Origin: a phage
Strand: one strand, 5' to 3'
DNA length: 44,991 nucleotides
Sequence record: PZ379602.1
Shown in pieces: positions 15,497 through 38,443 of the stretch. The notes under the pieces are model-generated. The model was not told the origin of the DNA. It worked only from the letters and a program-made list of their open reading frames with translations, and ran no database searches. Made by a program: the position numbers and the translations under genes. Position 1 is the first letter of the stretch. Every line of letters begins with the position of its first letter.

Positions 15497-17080
15497 TTAC
15501 CCCAGCAATCGTGGATTAATGTAAATTTTATCACCAATCAGGCATGTGTAGTTTTTCTCATCAAGCATAGGAATCAAGTGGTCCTTAATGCGAGTCATAA
15601 TTCCAGCCTGAGCTTCAAAAGGTTTAACCTTGCGTGCAGCCTCATACAACGAGCGAACACCAACAACACCTTTACCATTCTTGCCTTGCTTAATCAGGAT
15701 ATCAACCAGCTTGTTCATCTCGGCATTGTCACCAGCATGACCAGCAGCACTAGCGGATGATAAATAAGTCTTGCTTAGTTCGTTGAAAATCATAACCGCT
15801 TCCTGCATTGTATCCAGTTCAATCTCTCTTGACTTTTGAGGGCTGGATCCGGCTGGTGAGAACCAGTTACGAATTACGTGCAGAACAGAAGCGATGCGGA
15901 TTGCTTGCTTATCAAACTTACCAAGAGCACCGCGCAACATTGTGTGAGAATACTTGCCACCATCACCAAGATGAGGCTCCATCTCTTGACGAGCGCGGTT
16001 AAGGTAACGCATTGATGACGCGCTTACAGTAAGTTTCGCTTCAACTTCATTCATAATCTCATGAACAAGACGGAAATAGTCTGCTTTCAGGCCGCCATCA
16101 ATAGCCTCATAGGTTGAATCACCATTCTCATCAACAAATACGCGCTCACCAAGAAATGACTTCTCACGCACCAGAAGGAAGCGCTCAGATACACCGATAC
16201 CACGCGCACCGGCATTCATAATGGCGTTAATTGTTTCATCCTGCGCAATTACAGAGATACAACCCATAGCCACGAAACTCATGTTGTTTTCTGCATTCGC
16301 GCGCGCAATAGATACATTACCCGCATCCCACGCCTTAAGCACAAGTTCGCTGTTCGTTTTCTTCGAGCCATCACCGTAAGTCATGCCTAACAGTGAGTTG
16401 ACGCTAGTAGCCTCATCAGATATTACCGCAAAATTACCCTGGCGATTGTTGATTCGCGCAAGACCTTCCGGTGTAGTATCGGAGACAGGGAATACTATAT
16501 CGCATAGCTTCTCGAGCTTCTCCTCTAAATCCTCCTTCTCCTCAAAAAGTGAAGCCATTTCAGAAGGTGATTTCTCCTGCTTCATCTCTTTAGCCAGAGC
16601 GGACAGTTTAGCCATAATCTTTTTTCGATCACGTTTACGTACTTCATTCAACCGCTCAGTCTCAGCAATCATCGGCGCAATTGATAGCGAGTTAATGGCT
16701 GATTTACCAGTTGAAGGCGGCTGACTTGTTACCACGTACAAAGATGTTGGCTGTTGGGTTCCATGATACTCGACAGTAAAACGCCCAAGCATTGCAGCAG
16801 AAACACAACCAAGAAAGTGCATGTAAGCTGACGACTCAGGGAACTGAACCGAGCGAGCGATATTAGCCGATAGCTTACCAACAACATCAATATCATTACC
16901 GAGTGAGATTACTGGATACTTATCATTACCTGTATCAATCTCGACAGGTGCTTTCCAGAACGATTGAGACTGTCGATAGCCATTGGCATTAATAGCCACG
17001 CGAAGCGGTGGTAGGTTGTCATTGGCAGCGATTGCCATAACCTGCTCAACAGATAGTTTATCTTCGTTGAAATCAAACAT
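15497..17080 (-). CDS. large early protein of unknown function (527 aa), possibly replication-associated
   Basis: Long ORF with a promoter-like element and GGAGAG RBS upstream; no P-loop or methyltransferase motifs recognised. Confidence 0.75.
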   Translation of the reverse strand: MFDFNEDKLSVEQVMAIAANDNLPPLRVAINANGYRQSQSFWKAPVEIDTGNDKYPVISLGNDIDVVGKLSANIARSVQFPESSAYMHFLGCVSAAMLGRFTVEYHGTQQPTSLYVVTSQPPSTGKSAINSLSIAPMIAETERLNEVRKRDRKKIMAKLSALAKEMKQEKSPSEMASLFEEKEDLEEKLEKLCDIVFPVSDTTPEGLARINNRQGNFAVISDEATSVNSLLGMTYGDGSKKTNSELVLKAWDAGNVSIARANAENNMSFVAMGCISVIAQDETINAIMNAGARGIGVSERFLLVREKSFLGERVFVDENGDSTYEAIDGGLKADYFRLVHEIMNEVEAKLTVSASSMRYLNRARQEMEPHLGDGGKYSHTMLRGALGKFDKQAIRIASVLHVIRNWFSPAGSSPQKSREIELDTMQEAVMIFNELSKTYLSSASAAGHAGDNAEMNKLVDILIKQGKNGKGVVGVRSLYEAARKVKPFEAQAGIMTRIKDHLIPMLDEKNYTCLIGDKIYINPRLLG

Positions 17081-18294: not shown

Positions 18295-18480
18295 TTACCA
18301 GGGTAAACATTCGTCGCAGCCGAGGCCATCGCAGCACAGATATTCATCATCTGACTGGAATTGCTTAGCAAGGTCGATATCGATGCGTCCGCGTAAAACC
18401 ATATCAGTATAGTCACTGTTCAATCCAATCAGCGCACATTCCTGCTTTAATTGCTCAAATGCTTCGTCTTTAAGTTTCAT
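18295..18480 (-). CDS. hypothetical Cys-rich small protein (61 aa)
   Basis: ATG after GAGGAGAGAG RBS; C-terminal CCDGLGCDEC cluster; first gene of the minus-strand early block. Confidence 0.5.
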   Translation of the reverse strand: MKLKDEAFEQLKQECALIGLNSDYTDMVLRGRIDIDLAKQFQSDDEYLCCDGLGCDECLPW

Positions 18481-18552
18481 ATCTCTCTCCTCGTTGTTGA
18501 TGGATTCATTATGGTATCGTCGCCAGTTTTTGTCATTAGCAAAAAGTGCTAT
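18481..18552 (-). promoter_or_regulatory. promoter-like element for the minus-strand early block (box ATAGCACTTTTTGCTAAT, CATAAT)
   Basis: Read on the minus strand; 23-bp spacing from TTGCTA to CATAAT. Confidence 0.45.
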
Positions 18553-18567
18553 TCGTTGGATTTATCT

Positions 18568-18980
18568 ATTGTTGCAGCTATTGCAATGATTATCATGATT
18601 ATTGCACATATAGCAATATTGCATGGAATGCAATGATGTTTTTGATTGTTGCAGAATTTGCAATGATTGATGTGGGGTGAATGAATGGTGGATGAACTAC
18701 CATACAAGTTGATTTTGATTCTTGCTGAGCCAATTTGGATATACACGTTATCGAAGTTATGGTGTGTATATGAGGTGCGCTTCCGAAGAATCATACACGC
18801 CTACCACGCTAGATTACGCAATGGTTACATAATAATATCTATATATATCAACCTTTTACTATATTATTATTATTATTATATATATGTATGTATATGGTGT
18901 AGATTGGTCGTATGGATGGGTCGATAGTTTTTCTATGAAAACTACTAATTTTATCTATATAGATACATATGCATATCCCC
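18568..18980. other. putative origin / regulatory hub: iteron-like direct repeats plus AT-rich low-complexity tract
   Basis: ATTGTTGCAG-N3-TTGCAATGATT at 18568-18591 and 18645-18668; TGCAATGAT also at 18629-18637; (TTA)n and (TA)n tracts around 18840-18960; lies between divergent transcription units. Confidence 0.4.
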
Positions 18981-19152
18981 GGCGAATCCGCGTAAAATCT
19001 TACACAGGGTAATTACACCAGCTATAGCTGGGCTGAGAGGTCAAAAAGCGTAACCAATGCAGATATAAACACAACATAACACTTGATAACGCGTATATTC
19101 ATGATACCATGGTTTCATCTTAACGAAGAGCAACCAATCAGGAGTAACGAAT

Positions 19153-19674
19153 ATGTCAGAACATAAAGAAGCAGTAAGTTTGGGTGAAATCATTCGATAC
19201 ATGGCGAGTCAGGCGCTCAAGTCAGAAGACAAAGTGTGCACAGTCCCTGTGACCATGATTGCTCGTCAATACTTCGGCATGAGTCGTGAGACGTTCGTAT
19301 CGCTAAGTGGTGAGGAGGTTCTACCTGGTGGTGAATACCACATGCCAAAACTAAAAGCGTCATACGTTTCAAACACCGTAAGCCGAATGCCTGAGATTAA
19401 GGCGGCTGACGTGCGCTCAAGGTTCTCACTTAGTTTTACCGACTTTGAGGGCGAGAGTGAGACATACTGCGCATCACTTAGCCTGGTTCCTGGCGCTGTA
19501 AAATCCGGCTCAAGAAGCAAAGCAGAGCAAGAGAAGGAGGCGGCTACCATTGAAAGGTTCAAGGCTCGATTGTTGAAACTATCACCAAGCGTCGCTGGTC
19601 TTGAAGGTGATGAACTTAAGGGTGCAGTATCAATGATTAACGCATACCAAGAAATGATTAAGGAGACTAAATAG
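19153..19674 (+). CDS. hypothetical early protein (173 aa)
   Basis: First plus-strand gene after the divergent region; AGGAG RBS. Confidence 0.6.
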   Translation: MSEHKEAVSLGEIIRYMASQALKSEDKVCTVPVTMIARQYFGMSRETFVSLSGEEVLPGGEYHMPKLKASYVSNTVSRMPEIKAADVRSRFSLSFTDFEGESETYCASLSLVPGAVKSGSRSKAEQEKEAATIERFKARLLKLSPSVAGLEGDELKGAVSMINAYQEMIKETK

Positions 19675-23812: not shown

Positions 23813-24337
23813 ATGAAAGACGAAAACTTCACCAGTCAGGCGCAAGAAAAGGTCCGCTCTGGCAACTTTAAAGCCATGTACAATAAAAAGTACTCAGACA
23901 TTACAACGCTAGCCAAAAACCGAAGCATGACACCCGAACAGCTATTTGAATTCGCCGTGAAATACTTCTCATGGGCTGAGGACCAGGCAATCAAGGCAAT
24001 CGAGACAGCCAGCTTCCAGGGTGTGGTAAAAGAGAGCCTGGTGCACAAACCACGAGTCTTCACGCTAACCGGATTCTGCCTTTACTGCGGTGTCACCCAT
24101 AGCGCCATCGAGAAATGGAGGAAGTCGGCTGGTTATGATGAGGTGATTGCGTTCATTGATTCCGTGATTCGCGAGCAGAAATACCAGCTTGCAGCATCTG
24201 GCATTGTTAACCCTGGCATGATTTCCAAGGAGCTTGGAATCGACAAACCGCAGGAGATCACTATAAGCAATAACTCTTCTGCTAACGACGTCGAAACGAT
24301 GAAGGAAGCTCTGGAGTCTGTGATTAGTAAGCTGTAA
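23813..24337 (+). CDS. terminase small subunit (by position)
   Basis: 174-aa ORF immediately upstream of the large terminase; strong RBS. Confidence 0.55.
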   Translation: MKDENFTSQAQEKVRSGNFKAMYNKKYSDITTLAKNRSMTPEQLFEFAVKYFSWAEDQAIKAIETASFQGVVKESLVHKPRVFTLTGFCLYCGVTHSAIEKWRKSAGYDEVIAFIDSVIREQKYQLAASGIVNPGMISKELGIDKPQEITISNNSSANDVETMKEALESVISKL

Positions 24338-24457
24338 TAACATGGGGTAGATTGGCGTGATCAAATTAATGAAGGCGTTATTGGTGTATTACATGATGGC
24401 AGCTACATGCTTCACAACTGGATTCTTAATTGGCGTGATGGTTGGATTGGTGAAATT

Positions 24458-26026
24458 ATGGCTAATTTAGTTTGGGAGGAAATGACGCCAGCAGAAAAGA
24501 TGGCGGTTAAGGCGATATCCACTCATAGCTTCGAGGGTTTCTTACGAGTGTGGTTCCAGCTTACCCAGGGAGAGCGATACATACCTAACTGGCACCATAG
24601 ATACCTTTGCAGAATTATCGATGAGATTATTGCTGGTGAGCGTAAGGACACAATCATTAACATCGCTCCTGGCAGTGGGAAGACAGAGATTGCCTCAATT
24701 CACTTCCCAGCCTACTCAATGGTTAAGTTGAGAAAGGTAAGGAACCTGAATATATCGTATGCTGACTCACTGGTTAAGCGTAACTCCAAGCGTGTGCGCG
24801 ACTTAATTAAGTCTGTTGAGTTCCAGGAGTTGTTCCCATGTAAGTTTGGTACGTGTAAGGATGATGAGCTACAGGTCCTGGATGACTATGGCAAGGTCAG
24901 GTTTGAGTCAATCTCTAAAGCCACTGGCGGCCAAATTACAGGCGCGAGGGGTGGATATATAACCGATTCGTATAGTGGTGCGGTACTGTTAGATGATTTT
25001 GACAAACCAGCCGACATGCTTTCTGCTGTTTTTCGCGCTAACAATCACGTGATGCTAAAGAATACAATACGCTCTCGTAGGGCGAGCTCCGTAAAAGGAA
25101 AGGCGACGCCGATTATCTCTATCCAACAGCGCCTTCATGTGAACGATAGTACGTGGTTCATGATGAATGGCGGTATGGGTATTAGCTTCGACTTGATTAA
25201 AATACCGGCGCTCGTAACTGAGGATTACGTCGACACGCTTCCTGACTGGATTAAGCAGCAATTCATTGATGACGTTCTATCAAGCGAATATATTGAGCGT
25301 GATGGTGTTAGGTACTATAGCTATTTCCCTGGCAAGGAATCTGTTCACGACCTAGTTGCAATGTGGGATTCTGATAGCTATACATTCCTTAGCCAGTATC
25401 AGCAAGAACCAGTAGCACTTGGCGGCAACCTGATTAACGTAGACTGGCTTCAACGCATTAGCGACACTCTGCGACCGCCAGCTAAGTACGATTACAGGTT
25501 TATGGTCCTTGATACTGCGATGACAACCAAAAGTTACAGCGACTTTAGCGTCATGCAGCTATGGGGTTATAAGGATGGGAAGATTTATCTGCTTGACCAG
25601 CGGCGCGGTAAATTTGAAGCTCCTGAGCTCGAGGCTGAGTTATTGGATTTCGAGAAGATGGCTAGGGCATCCAATCAGATAGATGGCATCCTTCGTAAAA
25701 TCATCATCGAGAAGAAAGCCTCTGGTATTGGCCTGATTCAATCAGCCGGAAGGGTTATGCGAACGCCTATCGAGCCGTACGTTCCGGATAACGATAAGCT
25801 GACTCGCGTAATGAGTGCATTGCCGCAGATTAAAGCTGGTAACGTAATCCTTCCGGAGTCTGCTACTTGGCTTAATGGCTTGCTAACGGAGATTGCGGCA
25901 TTCACGGCAGATGATTCACATGTTCACGATGACCAGATAGACTGTTTGACAATGGCTGTCAACCTGGTACTGAACATTGCAGAAGACCCTAAATCGAGGA
26001 TGATGCGCCTCGCTGGCATCAAATAG
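24458..26026 (+). CDS. terminase large subunit
   Basis: Walker A-like NIAPGSGKTEI; acidic nuclease-type C-terminal half; start at ATG 24458 (an alternative ATG exists at 24407). Confidence 0.85.
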   Translation: MANLVWEEMTPAEKMAVKAISTHSFEGFLRVWFQLTQGERYIPNWHHRYLCRIIDEIIAGERKDTIINIAPGSGKTEIASIHFPAYSMVKLRKVRNLNISYADSLVKRNSKRVRDLIKSVEFQELFPCKFGTCKDDELQVLDDYGKVRFESISKATGGQITGARGGYITDSYSGAVLLDDFDKPADMLSAVFRANNHVMLKNTIRSRRASSVKGKATPIISIQQRLHVNDSTWFMMNGGMGISFDLIKIPALVTEDYVDTLPDWIKQQFIDDVLSSEYIERDGVRYYSYFPGKESVHDLVAMWDSDSYTFLSQYQQEPVALGGNLINVDWLQRISDTLRPPAKYDYRFMVLDTAMTTKSYSDFSVMQLWGYKDGKIYLLDQRRGKFEAPELEAELLDFEKMARASNQIDGILRKIIIEKKASGIGLIQSAGRVMRTPIEPYVPDNDKLTRVMSALPQIKAGNVILPESATWLNGLLTEIAAFTADDSHVHDDQIDCLTMAVNLVLNIAEDPKSRMMRLAGIK

Positions 26027-35470: not shown

Positions 35471-38443
35471 ATGGCAACTAACGAAATTGCTGGTATCACG
35501 CTAGCCGTCGACGTAGCTCAGGTCGATAAGGGTACGCAATCCTTACAGAAATTCAGGCAAGCAAACGAGCAAGCTGCAACAGGCATTAATAGCTTCGTCA
35601 ACGCCGAACTTGTAGCCAAGACTCAAGCAAGGGACACTGCAAGGCAGCTTGAGGAGCAGCGCAAATCTTTCGCATCACTTCAGCAAGCCATAGACCCAAC
35701 CGCTGCTAAATTCCTGAAGTTGCAGAAAGCAGCAACAGATTTGGACAAAGCATTTGAATCCGGGATAGTTCCTGATGATGAATTCTTCAGGCTTGGCTCT
35801 GTTATTGAAACTCAAATCAATAAGCTAAACAGGTCTAAAGCCGCTCTTAGCGAAGAAGGCAGGGCTGCACTACAGGCATCAATAGATAAAGAGAAAGCAA
35901 CAACAGCAGCACAAAAGTTCATTCAATCTCTTGAGAACGAGGCGAATGCAGCAAGCCTGACAAGGACTGAACTTCTTCAGCTTAAGGCTGCTCAGCTAGG
36001 AGTTAGTGACCAGGCTGCACCGATTATCGACAGGATTGGAAAGGCTGCCGAGGCATCTGCGGTACAATTGCAGAAGCAAAGCTCCGCTTTTGTTAAGTCT
36101 GGGCTTAGTGCCGGTCAATACAAGCAAGCAATTCGACAGCTTCCAGTGCAGATTACAGATATCGGAACCTCTCTAGCTGGTGGTATCCCAATCTGGCTAA
36201 TTGCAATTCAGCAGGGTGGGCAGATTAAGGATAGCTTTGGTGGTATTGCTAACACCGCAAGGTTCGCACTGGCAGCCATTAACCCATTAACGGCAGTTGT
36301 TGGGACTTTGGGCTTGGCCCTCGGCGCTCTTGGTGTTGCTGCTTATCAGGCTGACAAGAACACTCGCGGACTAGCATCAACGATAACATTGGTTGGCAAC
36401 TCAACTATCACGTCGACAGCGCAGATAAATCAGGTTGTTGATGGAATTGAGAGTTCAACACTAGCCACGCGCGGACTTATCCAGGAGATAGCTAACAGCC
36501 TGGTAGCAAACGGTAATCTGACTCTTACGCAGATAGATAAGATAACCAAGGCGACAGCACAATGGGCAACTGTAACATCAACAGACTCGAAAACTATTCT
36601 TGGATACTTTGATCAGATTACAAAGGACCCAATTCAAGGTCTGATTGCACTCGATAAGCAGTTCAACTTCCTTCAGTCTGGGCAATTGAAATACATTGAG
36701 AATATCAGGAAGACGGCTGGAGAAACAGAGGCTGTAACCGCAGCTACTGAGCTATTCGCTAACGTTATGGAAAACAGGCTAGCAGACGTAGCACTAAGCC
36801 TTAACCCTCTTGAGAGCGCATGGAATAGCTTCAGGAAGTTTGTAAGTGAGATTTGGGATGATATAAGCAAAAGGACGCTTGGGGCGCTTAACTTAATAAC
36901 TGACGTTGTTGCTGGGACTATTGAGCAGATAAGGTCGTTAATAAACTCCGGTGATATCCTATTGGGCGAGTTTGCAATAGCAGCAACCAAGACACTTCAG
37001 TCAATACCTGGACTTGGCGATTTAGGCAATGAAGCAATCGCTGAGCAGCAAAAGATTGTTGATGCAGCTAAGAAGCAAAATGAGGAGTTAGCAAAAAGCA
37101 TAGCTGAGCGAGATGCGAGAATCAGGAAGGGTGAGCTTGGTTATGTCGAGAACAACAATAACACCAACCTTAGCGGAAATAATGCATCAACCGATAAGGA
37201 GTTTGCAGCAAGGAAGAAGGCTCTTGCCGATGAGTATGATGCGATAAAGAAAGCAGGGAGTGAGAGGAAAAAGGCTGTAAAAGAAGAAAGGGATTTAACT
37301 TTATCTTATGAATCTGGCGTTCTTGCACTTCAGGCTCAGTTAAAGGTCTTACAAGAGCACAGAACGATAAATGATGTAATAAGCAATGAAAGAAAGCAGT
37401 TATTCCAGGAAGAAGCGAAGTTTGCAATACTTGAACAAAGACAAGCGGATGGTACGCTTACAAAATCACAGGCTAAGCTACTTGCGCAGAAGAATATCAT
37501 TCTTGAACAGGCTAAACAGAAGGCTGAACTTGGTGACCAGATTGTGCTTCAGGAGAGGTCAAACAAGTTACTTGATGACAACCTTAAGAAGACTGTGCAG
37601 ATTACAAATGAAGCAAATAATTTTTCACTTGCTGCTAATTTATCTGACAGGGAGAAGCAAAGAGCAAAAGAGCTTCAGGCACTTCAATCCAATCAGGTAA
37701 ACAAAGGTGGTTCTGTAGATGATACTGATTTTCAGGCATTACTAGAAGCCAGGCGTAATTTCTATGCTCAAGAGGATGCGCTACGTGAAAACTGGCTTGC
37801 TGGTGTGCAATCATCCTTCGCTAATTGGGCAGAGAGCGCGACAGATGCATTCTCTATCGCTGGTGAATTGACCACTTCCGTCTTTACCGGAATTACCGAG
37901 CAGATCACCAGCCTTGTAACAACTGGCACGGCAGACTTCAGGAGTTTTACCGTTGAGATCCTGAAACAGATTGCCAGGATTGCGACTCAACTCTTAATTG
38001 TTAAGGCCATTGAGTCAAGTCTGAGTAGTTTTGGTGGTACTGGCGGCGCTATTGGTTCAATTGGTAGTGCGCTTGGTTTTGCTGGCGGAGGTTATACTGG
38101 TGATGGCGGGAAATATCAACCTGCTGGGACTGTTCACCGTGGTGAGTTTGTATTCACAAAAGAGGCTACAAGCAGGATTGGTGTTAAGAATCTGTACAAG
38201 CTGATGCGCGGTTATGCAAATGGAGGTGCTGTTGGTGGGCCATCTGGTTATGCTAATGGTGGGGTTGTCGGCGGTACTAATGTCAGTGTTGGTGGTGTGA
38301 CGGTTAACGTAAACTCTGGAATCGGTGGCGGAAATGATGCTAAGGCGATAGAATCTGGAGTTAAGGTTATCGTGGCTGAGGAAATCAGCAAATCATTCCA
38401 ACAGGGTGGCAGAGCGTATCAGTTCTTGCGCGGTTACAACTAA
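35471..38443 (+). CDS. tail tape measure protein
   Basis: 990 aa; long Ala/Gln/Lys-rich helical N-terminal part and Gly-rich C-terminal region; position after the chaperones. Confidence 0.9.
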   Translation: MATNEIAGITLAVDVAQVDKGTQSLQKFRQANEQAATGINSFVNAELVAKTQARDTARQLEEQRKSFASLQQAIDPTAAKFLKLQKAATDLDKAFESGIVPDDEFFRLGSVIETQINKLNRSKAALSEEGRAALQASIDKEKATTAAQKFIQSLENEANAASLTRTELLQLKAAQLGVSDQAAPIIDRIGKAAEASAVQLQKQSSAFVKSGLSAGQYKQAIRQLPVQITDIGTSLAGGIPIWLIAIQQGGQIKDSFGGIANTARFALAAINPLTAVVGTLGLALGALGVAAYQADKNTRGLASTITLVGNSTITSTAQINQVVDGIESSTLATRGLIQEIANSLVANGNLTLTQIDKITKATAQWATVTSTDSKTILGYFDQITKDPIQGLIALDKQFNFLQSGQLKYIENIRKTAGETEAVTAATELFANVMENRLADVALSLNPLESAWNSFRKFVSEIWDDISKRTLGALNLITDVVAGTIEQIRSLINSGDILLGEFAIAATKTLQSIPGLGDLGNEAIAEQQKIVDAAKKQNEELAKSIAERDARIRKGELGYVENNNNTNLSGNNASTDKEFAARKKALADEYDAIKKAGSERKKAVKEERDLTLSYESGVLALQAQLKVLQEHRTINDVISNERKQLFQEEAKFAILEQRQADGTLTKSQAKLLAQKNIILEQAKQKAELGDQIVLQERSNKLLDDNLKKTVQITNEANNFSLAANLSDREKQRAKELQALQSNQVNKGGSVDDTDFQALLEARRNFYAQEDALRENWLAGVQSSFANWAESATDAFSIAGELTTSVFTGITEQITSLVTTGTADFRSFTVEILKQIARIATQLLIVKAIESSLSSFGGTGGAIGSIGSALGFAGGGYTGDGGKYQPAGTVHRGEFVFTKEATSRIGVKNLYKLMRGYANGGAVGGPSGYANGGVVGGTNVSVGGVTVNVNSGIGGGNDAKAIESGVKVIVAEEISKSFQQGGRAYQFLRGYN

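What the first reader, a model, noticed from the sequence alone, without database searches (positions are those of the whole stretch)
18568..18980. Putative replication origin: iteron-like direct repeats next to an AT-rich unwinding-type tract
Between the divergent early transcription units there is a largely non-coding region with two 24-bp direct repeats (ATTGTTGCAG-N3-TTGCAATGATT at 18568 and 18645), a third TGCAATGAT copy at 18629, then about 150 bp of very AT-rich low-complexity DNA with (TTA)5 and (TA)n tracts. This is the classic layout of an origin with initiator-binding iterons and a DNA unwinding element. The ORFs called here by the six-frame track are probably not genes.
Basis: inference. 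Interest (0 to 1): 0.6.

Follow-up and report, generated by a model that had tools for sequence, protein, structure and literature searches.

The report
Packaging start site of T1-like phage
The repeats and the AT-rich tract are real, conserved, non-coding DNA, but they bracket the spot where related T1-like phages begin packaging DNA into heads (the pac site), so a packaging signal between two early promoters fits better than a replication origin, which remains untested.

Summary
Two 24-bp direct repeats (18568-18591, 18645-18668; 21/24 identical; 0 of 300 shuffles match this) lie in a dense TTGCA/TGCAAT array. A 150-bp AT-rich tract (18826-18976) is the least stable DNA in the window. The overlapping ORFs are not conserved genes.

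The window is an Rtp-like Drexlerviridae coliphage, 99% identical to phage ES. The finding lies in the 672-bp gap between the divergent early gene blocks, which is where T1-family genomes have their packaging end.
- PhageTerm termini of relatives MSK and UDF157lw map to window 18700 and 18693.
- The Rao1 record starts at 18692.
- The T1 RefSeq terminal repeat starts at about 18618 and Rtp at 18612.
- The restriction-mapped TLS pac lies in the same gap.

So the cut falls between the array and the AT tract. The small terminase is of the P22 gp3 type.

Best reading: a pac region flanked by divergent promoters, with the array as the likely terminase recognition element. Which protein binds the array is unresolved. 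An origin role is unsupported but not excluded, because the origin of T1-like phages is still unmapped. This is a known kind of element described in finer detail; interest is modest.

The parts
18508..18536 (-). Leftward early promoter candidate: -35 ATGACA, 17-nt spacer, -10 CATAAT. It would drive the gene that starts at 18480.
   Evidence: Consensus scan gives 10/12 matches. The -10 (TATAGT/TATGAT/CATAAT) and -35 positions are kept in the 15-phage alignment. Function is inferred.
18536..18552 (-). One copy of the dispersed T1-family motif ATAGCAC-N3-TTGNTAA, lying just upstream of the -35. It is promoter-associated and not part of the repeat array.
   Evidence: There are 14 copies in the window, 13 of them co-oriented with local transcription. 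It matches the 21-nt direct repeat reported for TLS about 76 nt upstream of start codons (PMC11447400). It is nearly invariant in the alignment.
18555..18670 (+). It contains the 24-mers at 18568-18591 and 18645-18668, the 46-nt unit repeated at 18572-18617 and 18619-18664, the palindrome GCAATATTGC at 18613-18622, and the inverted repeat ATTGCAT-GGA-ATGCAAT at 18618-18634. It is the candidate recognition element of the pac site.
   Evidence: establish the repeats. The array is about 77-92% conserved across Braunvirinae, Rogunavirinae and Nouzillyvirus, with invariant motif cores and variable spacers. It is unique within the window. It has no match in plasmids or E. coli genomes.
18612..18618 (+). 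Positions equivalent to base 1 of the Rtp record (18612) and base 1 of the T1 RefSeq record (18618). T1 base 1 is the start of the annotated 2,800-bp terminal repeat.
18676..18696 (+). GGTGAATGAAT tandem (1.9 copies). GTGAATGAA is a conserved block immediately left of the inferred cut.
18692..18700 (+). Inferred pac cleavage position, the start of the first headful. Packaging proceeds rightward from here.
   Evidence: The MSK PhageTerm terminus at 36,862 (forward, p=1.6e-9; PMC8421802) maps to 18700. Base 1 of the UDF157lw record, which was re-ordered by PhageTerm (PMC10838988), maps to 18693. Base 1 of the Rao1 record maps to 18692. The position is inferred by homology and was not measured for this phage.
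18710..18728 (+). Third, degenerate copy of the first half of the repeat (TGATTTTGATTCTTGCTGA), lying right of the cut. Repeat copies therefore flank the cut, with spacings of 77 and 73 bp.
   Evidence: Repeat family D4 is 84% identical to 18637-18655. It is conserved in Braunvirinae, Sd1 and ESCO41.
18826..18976 (.). AT-rich tract. It contains (TAT)6 at 18862-18879, (TA)n runs, five ATATA, and a perfect IHF core TATCAACCTTTTA at 18846-18858. Its role is unknown; a bend or melting element for packaging, promoters, or an origin unwinding element are all possible.
   Evidence: It is the least stable 150 bp in the window, z=5.5. The (ATT)5-6 run and flanks are conserved across subfamilies, and analogous tracts occur in T1 and TLS. 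The IHF core occurs 3 times in the whole window, with 0.04 expected here.
19018..19031 (.). Perfect palindrome CCAGCTATAGCTGG upstream of the rightward promoter. It is a possible operator.
   Evidence: It is conserved in Rtp and nearly so in the DTL, TR2 and BEK2 rows. Function is inferred.
19083..19110 (+). Rightward early promoter candidate: TTGATA, 16-nt spacer, TGaTACCAT (extended -10). It would drive the gene that starts at 19153.
   Evidence: TTGAyw and TGnTAnnAT are kept in most rows of the alignment.
23813..24337 (+). Small terminase, P22 gp3 type. It is the most likely protein to read the pac region.
   Evidence: phrog_606 at 1.6e-57. Pfam PF16677 GP3_package at 1.4e-12. PDB 3P9A (P22 gp3) at 2.4e-13.
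24407..26026 (+). Large terminase, the nuclease/ATPase that would make the cut.
   Evidence: phrog_38 at 7e-107.
15497..17080 (-). DUF3987 (superfamily 6, MCM-like) replicative helicase, the '527-aa early protein'. It is the alternative candidate binder if the array is an origin.
   Evidence: phrog_2373 at 9e-255. PF13148 at 2.6e-40. The family is described as replicative helicases with a C-terminal winged-helix domain (PMC4889955).

Best explanation
The finding sits in the terminus/control region of a T1-like (Rtp-like, Drexlerviridae) headful-packaging phage. The 672-bp non-coding gap holds two outward-facing early promoters and, between them, the pac site.

Proposed mechanism:
- The P22-gp3-type small terminase ring binds the oriented TGATT/TTGCA repeat array at 18555-18670, and probably the degenerate copy at 18710-18728 as well.
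- The large terminase cuts the concatemer at about 18692-18700.
- DNA is then packaged rightward through the AT-rich tract towards the terminase and structural genes.
- Later headful cuts give terminally redundant, partly permuted genomes.
- The AT-rich tract, with its IHF-core match, may help by bending or melting the DNA.

What is shown and what is inferred:
- Shown: the anatomy, its conservation, its non-coding nature, the terminase type, and the mapping of relatives' packaging ends onto this spot.
- Inferred: that this phage cuts at the same place, that the small terminase is what reads the array, and any role for the AT tract.
For: - Identity of the phage and the gap.
- T1 RefSeq base 1 begins the annotated 2,800-bp terminal repeat and aligns inside the array. 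T1 shares GATTGTTGC-N6-TGCAATGATTG with the window.
- Ends from relatives cluster within 9 bp. Two are PhageTerm-derived: MSK at 18700 and UDF157lw at 18693. Rao1 is a record start at 18692 whose method is unknown.
- Rtp, FP, ESCO41, XT34, IMM-001, Rogue1 and CEB_EC3a also have a record end in this gap.
- The TLS pac, mapped by restriction digests, lies in the homologous gap and has the same layout: a dispersed-motif promoter, lineage-specific repeats, the end, then an AT tract.
- The SU57 paper states that the T1 pac lies in this untranslated region.
- Oriented TGATT is enriched beside the end in the window, T1 and TLS: 6, 4 and 5 copies against about 0.5 expected. GATT runs 7:0 on the top strand.
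- The small terminase is homologous to P22 gp3.
- Repeat copies lie on both sides of the cut.
- The array is conserved as motif cores, with no coding signal.
Against: - No reads or virion DNA exist for this phage, so its own end is not measured.
- Some record starts follow the T1/Rtp convention and are not independent measurements.
- T1 base 1 lies about 75 bp left of the PhageTerm ends.
- Small terminases of phages sharing the array are only 59-68% identical, with a variable putative helix-turn-helix. The large terminase falls to 47% identity in ESCO41.
- By contrast, the helicase is 88-97% identical in the same phages. The binder is therefore not identified.
- The P22-pac-like 9-mer GATTTATCT at 18559 also occurs at two other places in the window, so it is at chance level.
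Confidence: 0.55

Rival explanations
1. This is the first reader's view: a replication origin. In this reading the array is a set of initiator-binding sites. A likely binder is the C-terminal winged-helix domain of the DUF3987 MCM-like helicase, working with the separate primase. The AT-rich tract is the unwinding element, and flanking transcription helps opening. The origin might coexist with pac in the same gap.
For: - The AT tract is the least stable DNA in the window.
- The array is the only non-coding local direct-repeat cluster in the 45 kb.
- The region lies between divergent early promoters.
- DUF3987 helicases are replicative and carry a C-terminal winged-helix domain.
- The helicase, including residues 436-527, is 85-100% conserved in phages that share the array. 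It is only about 50-57% conserved in T1 and TLS, whose arrays differ.
- The origin of T1-like phages is reported as not found.
- There is one perfect IHF core in the AT tract.
Against: - No replication data exist for this region.
- There are only two long repeats, 77 bp apart, and the cores run in mixed orientation.
- The AT tract is 157 bp from the array, and the packaging cut falls between them.
- There is no adjacent initiator gene; the helicase is 1.4 kb away and the primase 12 kb away.
- There is no consensus DnaA box.
- The helicase covariation is just as well explained by lineage and linkage, and the small terminase shows the same grouping.
- GC skew simply follows gene orientation.
Confidence: 0.2
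2. The array is a transcriptional control element. It would be a multi-site operator or enhancer for a phage regulator (for example the 160-aa Cro-like protein encoded at 6134-6616) or for a host factor. It would tune the leftward and rightward early promoters, and its closeness to the pac end would be coincidental.
For: - The array lies about 20-135 bp upstream of the -35 of the leftward promoter, between divergent promoters.
- The regulator is 82-90% conserved in phages that share the array.
- The inverted repeat ATTGCAT-N3-ATGCAAT looks like a dimer-binding operator.
Against: - The array does not overlap either promoter core, and it is about 415 bp from the rightward promoter.
- The motif occurs nowhere else in the window, whereas the phage's promoters share a different dispersed motif.
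- Scans for CytR-like and CRP-like sites were not above background.
- This reading does not explain why packaging ends map here.
Confidence: 0.1
3. The repeats lie in real small protein-coding genes, as some GenBank records annotate ('membrane protein', 'hypothetical protein').
For: - ORFs of 81 aa (minus strand), 80 aa (plus strand) and 61 aa (plus strand) are open in this window.
- A few records annotate ORFs here.
- A 33-aa minus-strand ORF at 18562-18663 stays open in 10 of 14 relatives.
Against: - The longer ORFs have frameshifts or stops in most relatives, and the annotations disagree in strand and position.
- Substitutions by codon position are 17/25/26, with no third-position excess.
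- The start codon of the 33-aa ORF is TTT in five relatives.
- Most records, including the RefSeq entries for T1, Rtp, DTL, IME253 and IME542, leave the gap unannotated.
Confidence: 0.03

Closest known systems
pac region of coliphage T1 (left end of the T1 genome; RefSeq NC_005833, repeat_region 1..2800)
   Same: - Same family and the same position: between the leftward and rightward small-gene blocks, about 160-210 bp from the leftward start codon.
- Shared sequence GATTGTTGC-N6-TGCAATGATTG.
- The same dispersed promoter motif beside it.
- An AT-rich (TA)n tract about 200-290 bp inside the end.
- A gp3-type small terminase several kb downstream.
   Different: - T1 keeps only the right 47-bp unit. 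Its left half is different (TGGAAT-type repeats with GATC sites).
- T1 record base 1 is about 75 bp left of the ends seen in Rtp-like and Rogue-like relatives.
- How T1 base 1 was determined could not be checked, because the paper is not held.
SPP1 pac (pacL - pacC - pacR) of Bacillus phage SPP1
   Same: From general knowledge: a roughly 270-bp non-coding site in which small-terminase-binding repeat boxes lie on both sides of a fairly precise cut, with unidirectional headful packaging. Here, repeat copies at 18568 and 18645 lie left of the cut at about 18692-18700 and a copy at 18718 lies right of it.
   Different: The small terminase family is unrelated, the sequences are unrelated, and binding has not been tested here. 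The SPP1 pac lies next to its terminase genes, whereas this site is 5.1 kb upstream of terS.
P22 pac and gp3 small terminase
   Same: The small terminase is homologous (PF16677; PDB 3P9A at E=2.4e-13). Packaging is headful with a pac site.
   Different: The P22 pac is a single 22-bp site inside gene 3 (sequence quoted in PMC11447400). Here the site is intergenic, repeated and 5 kb from terS. Only a 9-mer (GATTTATCT) is shared, and it occurs three times in the window, which is chance level.
Lambda-type or plasmid iteron origins, and P4 ori/crr
   Same: Repeated protein-binding motifs plus an AT-rich, easily melted tract. P4 uses a primase/helicase with a DNA-binding C-terminal domain, and the T1 primase is annotated as similar to P4-family alpha proteins.
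   Different: - Only two long repeats, with irregular phasing.
- The AT tract is not adjacent to the repeats.
- No initiator gene at the site, and no DnaA boxes.
- No functional data.

Membership tests
pac site of a headful-packaging tailed phage | The phage encodes a small and a large terminase of a headful (pac) type. | tested here: met
   TerS at 23813-24337 matches phrog_606, PF16677 and P22 gp3 (PDB 3P9A). TerL at 24407-26026 matches phrog_38.
pac site of a headful-packaging tailed phage | The first packaging cut (a sub-molar or over-represented DNA end) maps to the site, with one packaging direction. | tested here: met
   Met at the homologous position in relatives only.
- MSK PhageTerm maps to 18700, forward direction.
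- UDF157lw PhageTerm maps to 18693.
- The Rao1 record start maps to 18692.
- The T1 terminal repeat start maps to about 18618.
- The TLS restriction-mapped pac lies in the same gap.
This phage's own ends cannot be measured with these tools.
pac site of a headful-packaging tailed phage | The site is a conserved cis-acting sequence and not a gene. | tested here: met
   About 77-92% conserved across three subfamilies or genera, with broken ORFs and no codon periodicity.
pac site of a headful-packaging tailed phage | The small terminase binds the site specifically. | not testable with these tools
   Covariation was tried and does not discriminate. TerS is 59-68% identical among phages sharing the array, against 48-57% for T1 and TLS. 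The helicase shows the same grouping.
pac site of a headful-packaging tailed phage | The site cloned in a plasmid directs high-frequency packaging or transduction. | not testable with these tools
   This needs an experiment.
iteron-type replication origin | Three or more same-orientation iterons (about 17-22 bp) with regular, helically phased spacing. | tested here: not met
   There are two 24-mers 77 bp apart plus a degenerate half copy 73 bp further on. The TTGCA cores occur on both strands at irregular spacings of 9 to 30 bp.
iteron-type replication origin | An AT-rich unwinding element directly beside the iterons. | tested here: inconclusive
   An AT tract exists and is the least stable DNA in the window (z=5.5). 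However, it starts 157 bp from the last repeat, and the packaging cut lies in between.
iteron-type replication origin | An initiator gene overlaps or adjoins the iterons. | tested here: not met
   The neighbouring genes are small ORFs with no Pfam match and a DUF7174 protein. The helicase is 1.4 kb away and the primase is at 5142-6104.
iteron-type replication origin | Host initiation sites (DnaA boxes). | tested here: not met
   There is no TTWTNCACA in the gap. Three one-mismatch sites were found against 0.9 expected.
iteron-type replication origin | Replication initiates here, or the fragment replicates autonomously. | not testable with these tools
   No data are available. The literature reports that the origin of T1-like phages has not been found.
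dispersed T1-family promoter-associated repeat (the TLS 21-nt direct repeat), for 18536-18552 only | Consensus ATAGCAC-N3-TTGNTAA, many intergenic copies, oriented with transcription, about 76 nt upstream of a start codon. | tested here: met
   There are 14 copies, 13 of them co-oriented with transcription. This copy starts 74 nt from the ATG at 18480.

The most novel reading that the evidence does not exclude
The array plus the AT tract is the long-sought replication origin of T1-like phages. It would be read by the winged-helix C-terminal domain of the MCM-like DUF3987 helicase, and it would physically overlap the pac site, so that replication initiation and packaging initiation share one roughly 450-bp control region.
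Probability: 0.15. Interest if true: 0.6.

Novelty: new member of a known kind. Interest (0 to 1): 0.3.

Why it matters
T1-like phages are common laboratory and fermentation contaminants, therapy candidates and generalized transducers. In the papers I could read, their pac site is given only as a map position or is guessed from a 6-base resemblance to P22.

This analysis gives a nucleotide-level, family-wide anatomy: a repeat array, a cut at about 18692-18700, and a conserved AT tract. That supplies a concrete fragment to test for terminase binding, for building transducible plasmids, and for setting genome start coordinates consistently.

It also marks the only obvious candidate site if the unmapped origin of these phages turns out to be repeat-based.

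Tried and rejected
- Coding potential of the six-frame ORFs: rejected. Frames are broken and there is no codon periodicity.
- Rfam scan of 18300-19300: one sub-threshold hit only (DapZ, 20 bits against a gathering score of 56), treated as chance.
- Terminator scan: none found. The promoter scan was not above shuffles (5 against 4.6), so promoter calls rest on conservation.
- DnaA boxes: none. CytR-like octamers and CRP sites: not above background.
- P22 pac resemblance (GATTTATCT): the 9-mer occurs three times in the window, so it was downgraded to chance.
- GC skew: it changes sign with gene orientation at this gap and also near 6.6 kb, so it does not indicate an origin.
- Covariation of the array with TerS, TerL, helicase, primase and regulator across the window, IME542, Sd1, ESCO41, e4/1c, AHS24, Rtp, T1 and TLS: every protein gives the same grouping, so the test does not discriminate. 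The helicase C-terminal divergence in TLS and T1 is compatible with, but not specific for, origin binding.
- Search for the array in plasmids and in 5,426 E. coli genomes: no match, so there is no sign of a satellite or plasmid borrowing it.
- Pattern scans of genome contigs and viral contigs with GATTGTTGC-N7-GCAATGA: single hits in unrelated taxa at about the number expected by chance, plus the known T1-like phages. Uninformative.
- The search for related loci with the 173-aa protein and with the helicase returned mainly the same GenBank phages.
- The Rtp and T1 genome papers could not be read. How their base 1 was chosen is therefore unverified.
- Sequence search of the helicase against PDB: no useful hit.

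Full report
**What the window is.** The 1-kb stretch around the finding is 99% identical to Escherichia phages ES and AN_ECEAS. It is 70-80% identical to Rtp, IME542, JulesPiccard, MSK and many other Drexlerviridae. The window is therefore a T1-like, Rtp-type virulent coliphage.

The finding lies in a 672-bp gap (18481-19152). On the left is a block of leftward genes, whose first gene starts at 18480. On the right is a block of rightward genes, whose first gene is a DUF7174 protein at 19153. The two nearest relatives leave this gap unannotated. Homologous gaps in 12 other phages are 634-710 bp long.

Other genes in the window:
- Small terminase at 23813-24337 (PF16677; P22 gp3, PDB 3P9A at E=2.4e-13).
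- Large terminase at 24407-26026.
- DUF3987 helicase at 15497-17080 (minus strand).
- Primase at 5142-6104 (minus strand).
- Cro-like regulator at 6134-6616 (minus strand).

**Checking the observation.** The two 24-mers are at 18568-18591 and 18645-18668 and match at 21 of 24 positions. No other copy exists in the window, even allowing four mismatches. None of 300 dinucleotide shuffles of the gap gave a pair this good; the best was 20/24. The extra ATGCAATGAT is at 18628.

The repeats belong to a larger array:
- A 46-nt unit is repeated at 47-bp spacing (18572-18617 and 18619-18664).
- TTGCA occurs six times in 116 bp, against 0.18 expected.
- There is a central palindrome GCAATATTGC (18613-18622) and an inverted repeat ATTGCAT-GGA-ATGCAAT (18618-18634).
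- GATT occurs seven times on the top strand and never on the bottom strand.

The AT tract at 18826-18976 has 22% GC, contains (TAT)6 and (TA)n runs, and is the least stable 150 bp of the whole window (z=5.5).

One correction is needed. The tract is not next to the repeats. About 157 bp of ordinary composition, with its own conserved blocks, lies between them.

**Coding or not.** The ORFs of 81 aa (minus strand), 80 aa (plus strand), 61 aa (plus strand) and the shorter ones are frame-shifted or stopped in most of 14 relatives. Across the array, minimum substitution counts by codon position are 17/25/26 for the one short ORF that stays open, and its start codon is TTT in five relatives. GenBank annotations that place genes here disagree in strand and position. 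Rfam gives nothing above threshold.

**Conservation.** A 15-phage alignment of the gap shows islands of conservation separated by diverged DNA.
- 18536-18552 is one copy of a motif, ATAGCAC-N3-TTGNTAA. It occurs 14 times in the window, and 13 copies are oriented with local transcription. This is the 21-nt direct repeat described for phage TLS. It sits just upstream of a leftward promoter candidate, ATGACA-17-CATAAT.
- The array at 18555-18670 is 77-92% conserved across Braunvirinae, Rogunavirinae and Nouzillyvirus. The motif cores are invariant and the spacers vary. The genes on either side are much less conserved or are replaced.
- GTGAATGAA and GGACTACCATACAAGTTGATTTTGATTCT (18680-18722) form the next island.
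- The (ATT)5-6/(TA)n block at 18826-18900 is also conserved.
- The rightward promoter candidate TTGATA-16-TGaTACCAT lies at 19083-19110.

**Where packaging starts.** Several independent lines place the packaging end in this gap.
- The T1 RefSeq record annotates bases 1-2800 as the terminal repeat. Its first bases (GTTGCATGGTGTGCAAC...GATTGTTGCTTAGAATGCAATGATTG) align with window 18618 onwards, inside the array.
- Rtp base 1 aligns with 18612.
- The MSK paper reports a PhageTerm terminus at 36,862 in the forward direction (p=1.6e-9). That position aligns with window 18700.
- The UDF157lw record was re-ordered according to PhageTerm. Its base 1 aligns with 18693.
- Rao1 base 1 aligns with 18692.
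- FP, ESCO41, XT34, IMM-001, Rogue1 and CEB_EC3a also break within 18543-18735.
- Among 43 near-identical records with assembler-chosen starts, at least six break within about 540 bp of the site, against about 0.5 expected. Low-complexity DNA could also cause such breaks.
- In TLS, pac was located by restriction mapping to the same gap, 195 bp from the leftward gene. The order there is the same: promoter motif, lineage-specific repeats, the end, then an AT-rich tract.
- The SU57 paper says that the T1 pac lies in this untranslated region.

The most likely cut in this phage is therefore at about 18692-18700. That is 25-30 bp right of the second 24-mer and 130 bp left of the AT tract. A degenerate copy of the repeat's first half (18710-18728) lies just to the right of the cut.

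**How it most likely works.** I read the gap as the pac/terminus control region. The gp3-type small terminase assembles on the oriented repeat array. The large terminase cuts nearby, and packaging runs rightward.

Supporting this, TGATT in one orientation is enriched next to the end in three subfamilies whose sequences otherwise do not align. The counts are 6 in the window, 4 in T1 and 5 in TLS, each against about 0.5 expected. The layout resembles SPP1 pacL-pacC-pacR; that comparison rests on general knowledge and was not tested here.

The role of the AT tract is open. It has one perfect IHF core (18846-18858), a pattern found only three times in the whole window. An analogous tract is present in T1 and TLS. 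The MSK paper relays that ATATA repeats were discussed in the search for the T1 pac site.

**Why the binder is not settled.** Small terminases of phages that share the array are only 59-68% identical, and the putative helix-turn-helix varies. The ESCO41 large terminase is only 47% identical.

The DUF3987 helicase is 88-97% identical in the same phages. Its C-terminal 90 residues are 85-100% identical there, but about 50% in T1 and about 56% in TLS, whose arrays differ. This family is described as MCM-like replicative helicases with a C-terminal winged-helix domain. That pattern fits an origin reading, but it also fits simple lineage and linkage. The small terminase shows the same grouping (48-57% against T1 and TLS). 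I treat the covariation test as inconclusive.

**The origin hypothesis.**
- For: the AT tract is the least stable DNA in the window. The array is the only non-coding local repeat cluster in the 45 kb. The site lies between divergent early promoters. The origin of T1-like phages is reported as not found.
- Against: there are only two long repeats with irregular phasing and mixed core orientation. The AT tract is 157 bp away with the packaging cut in between. No initiator gene adjoins the site, and there is no consensus DnaA box. GC skew just follows gene direction. No replication data exist.

I give this reading about 0.2, including the case where the origin and pac overlap.

**Other readings.** An operator or enhancer array for a regulator is possible, at about 0.1. 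However, the array overlaps neither promoter core, and the motif is found nowhere else in the genome. The array is absent from plasmids and from E. coli genomes. Collection-wide pattern scans returned only chance-level hits.

**Comparison with known systems, and novelty.** The element is a member of a known kind, the pac region of T1-family phages. It meets the membership features that could be tested: terminase type, ends mapping here in relatives, and a conserved non-coding site. The functional features, terminase binding and sufficiency in cis, cannot be tested with these tools.

It fails or is inconclusive on the structural features of an iteron-type origin.

What is new is modest. In the papers I could read, pac in these phages is given as a map position or is guessed from a six-base resemblance to P22. 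Here it is resolved into a conserved array, a cut position supported by three relatives, and a conserved AT tract. Interest is about 0.3.

Noticed in passing
window, 14 sites: 1316, 5078, 6121, 6629, 8034, 10263, 13687, 17137, 17916, 18536, 20293, 20976, 26023, 34444: The dispersed 17-nt motif ATAGCAC-N3-TTGNTAA is mostly intergenic, and 13 of 14 copies are oriented with local transcription. It corresponds to the 21-nt direct repeat reported for phage TLS. It is probably a promoter-associated element shared across T1-like phages.
   Followed up: partly
whole window: GATC occurs only 29 times in 44,991 bp, about six-fold fewer than base composition predicts, and never in the 672-bp gap. T1 and TLS are reported to carry more than 200 methylated GATC sites. 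This suggests GATC avoidance in this lineage.
   Followed up: no
window 19018-19031: A perfect 14-bp palindrome CCAGCTATAGCTGG lies about 52 bp upstream of the -35 of the rightward early promoter. It is conserved or nearly so in Rtp, DTL, TR2 and BEK2. It may be a regulator binding site.
   Followed up: no
window 18925-18944: A hairpin-like element TAGTTTT-TCTATG-AAAACTA lies inside the AT-rich region. It is conserved in Rtp and IME542 and partly conserved in JulesPiccard.
   Followed up: no
L001 (OR466728, phage ES), around the gap: Product names in the ES record look mis-assigned. ORFs of 61 and 67 aa are called 'DNA helicase', a 79-aa ORF is called 'capsid maturation protease', and a 53-aa ORF is called 'endolysin'. 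The real 527-aa helicase is labelled hypothetical.
   Followed up: no
MK9072xx records (43 near-identical phages), positions equivalent to window 18450-18991: At least six of the 43 assembler-opened records break within about 540 bp of the pac region, against about 0.5 expected at random. This fits physical DNA ends there, or assembly breaks in the low-complexity AT tract.
   Followed up: partly
window 2412-2473: [quoted passage not shown] It would encode a glutamine-rich tail.
   Followed up: no
L050 (ESCO41) compared with window 24407-26026: The ESCO41 large terminase is only 47% identical to this phage's. Its helicase is 91% identical and its pac-region array is almost the same. This looks like mosaic exchange of the packaging motor without change of the array.
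   Followed up: partly
window 6617-6712: This is the second divergent switch point, with regulator and primase genes leftward and other genes rightward. It is the global minimum of cumulative GC skew and carries a copy of the dispersed motif at 6629. It is the other natural place to look for an origin.
   Followed up: no
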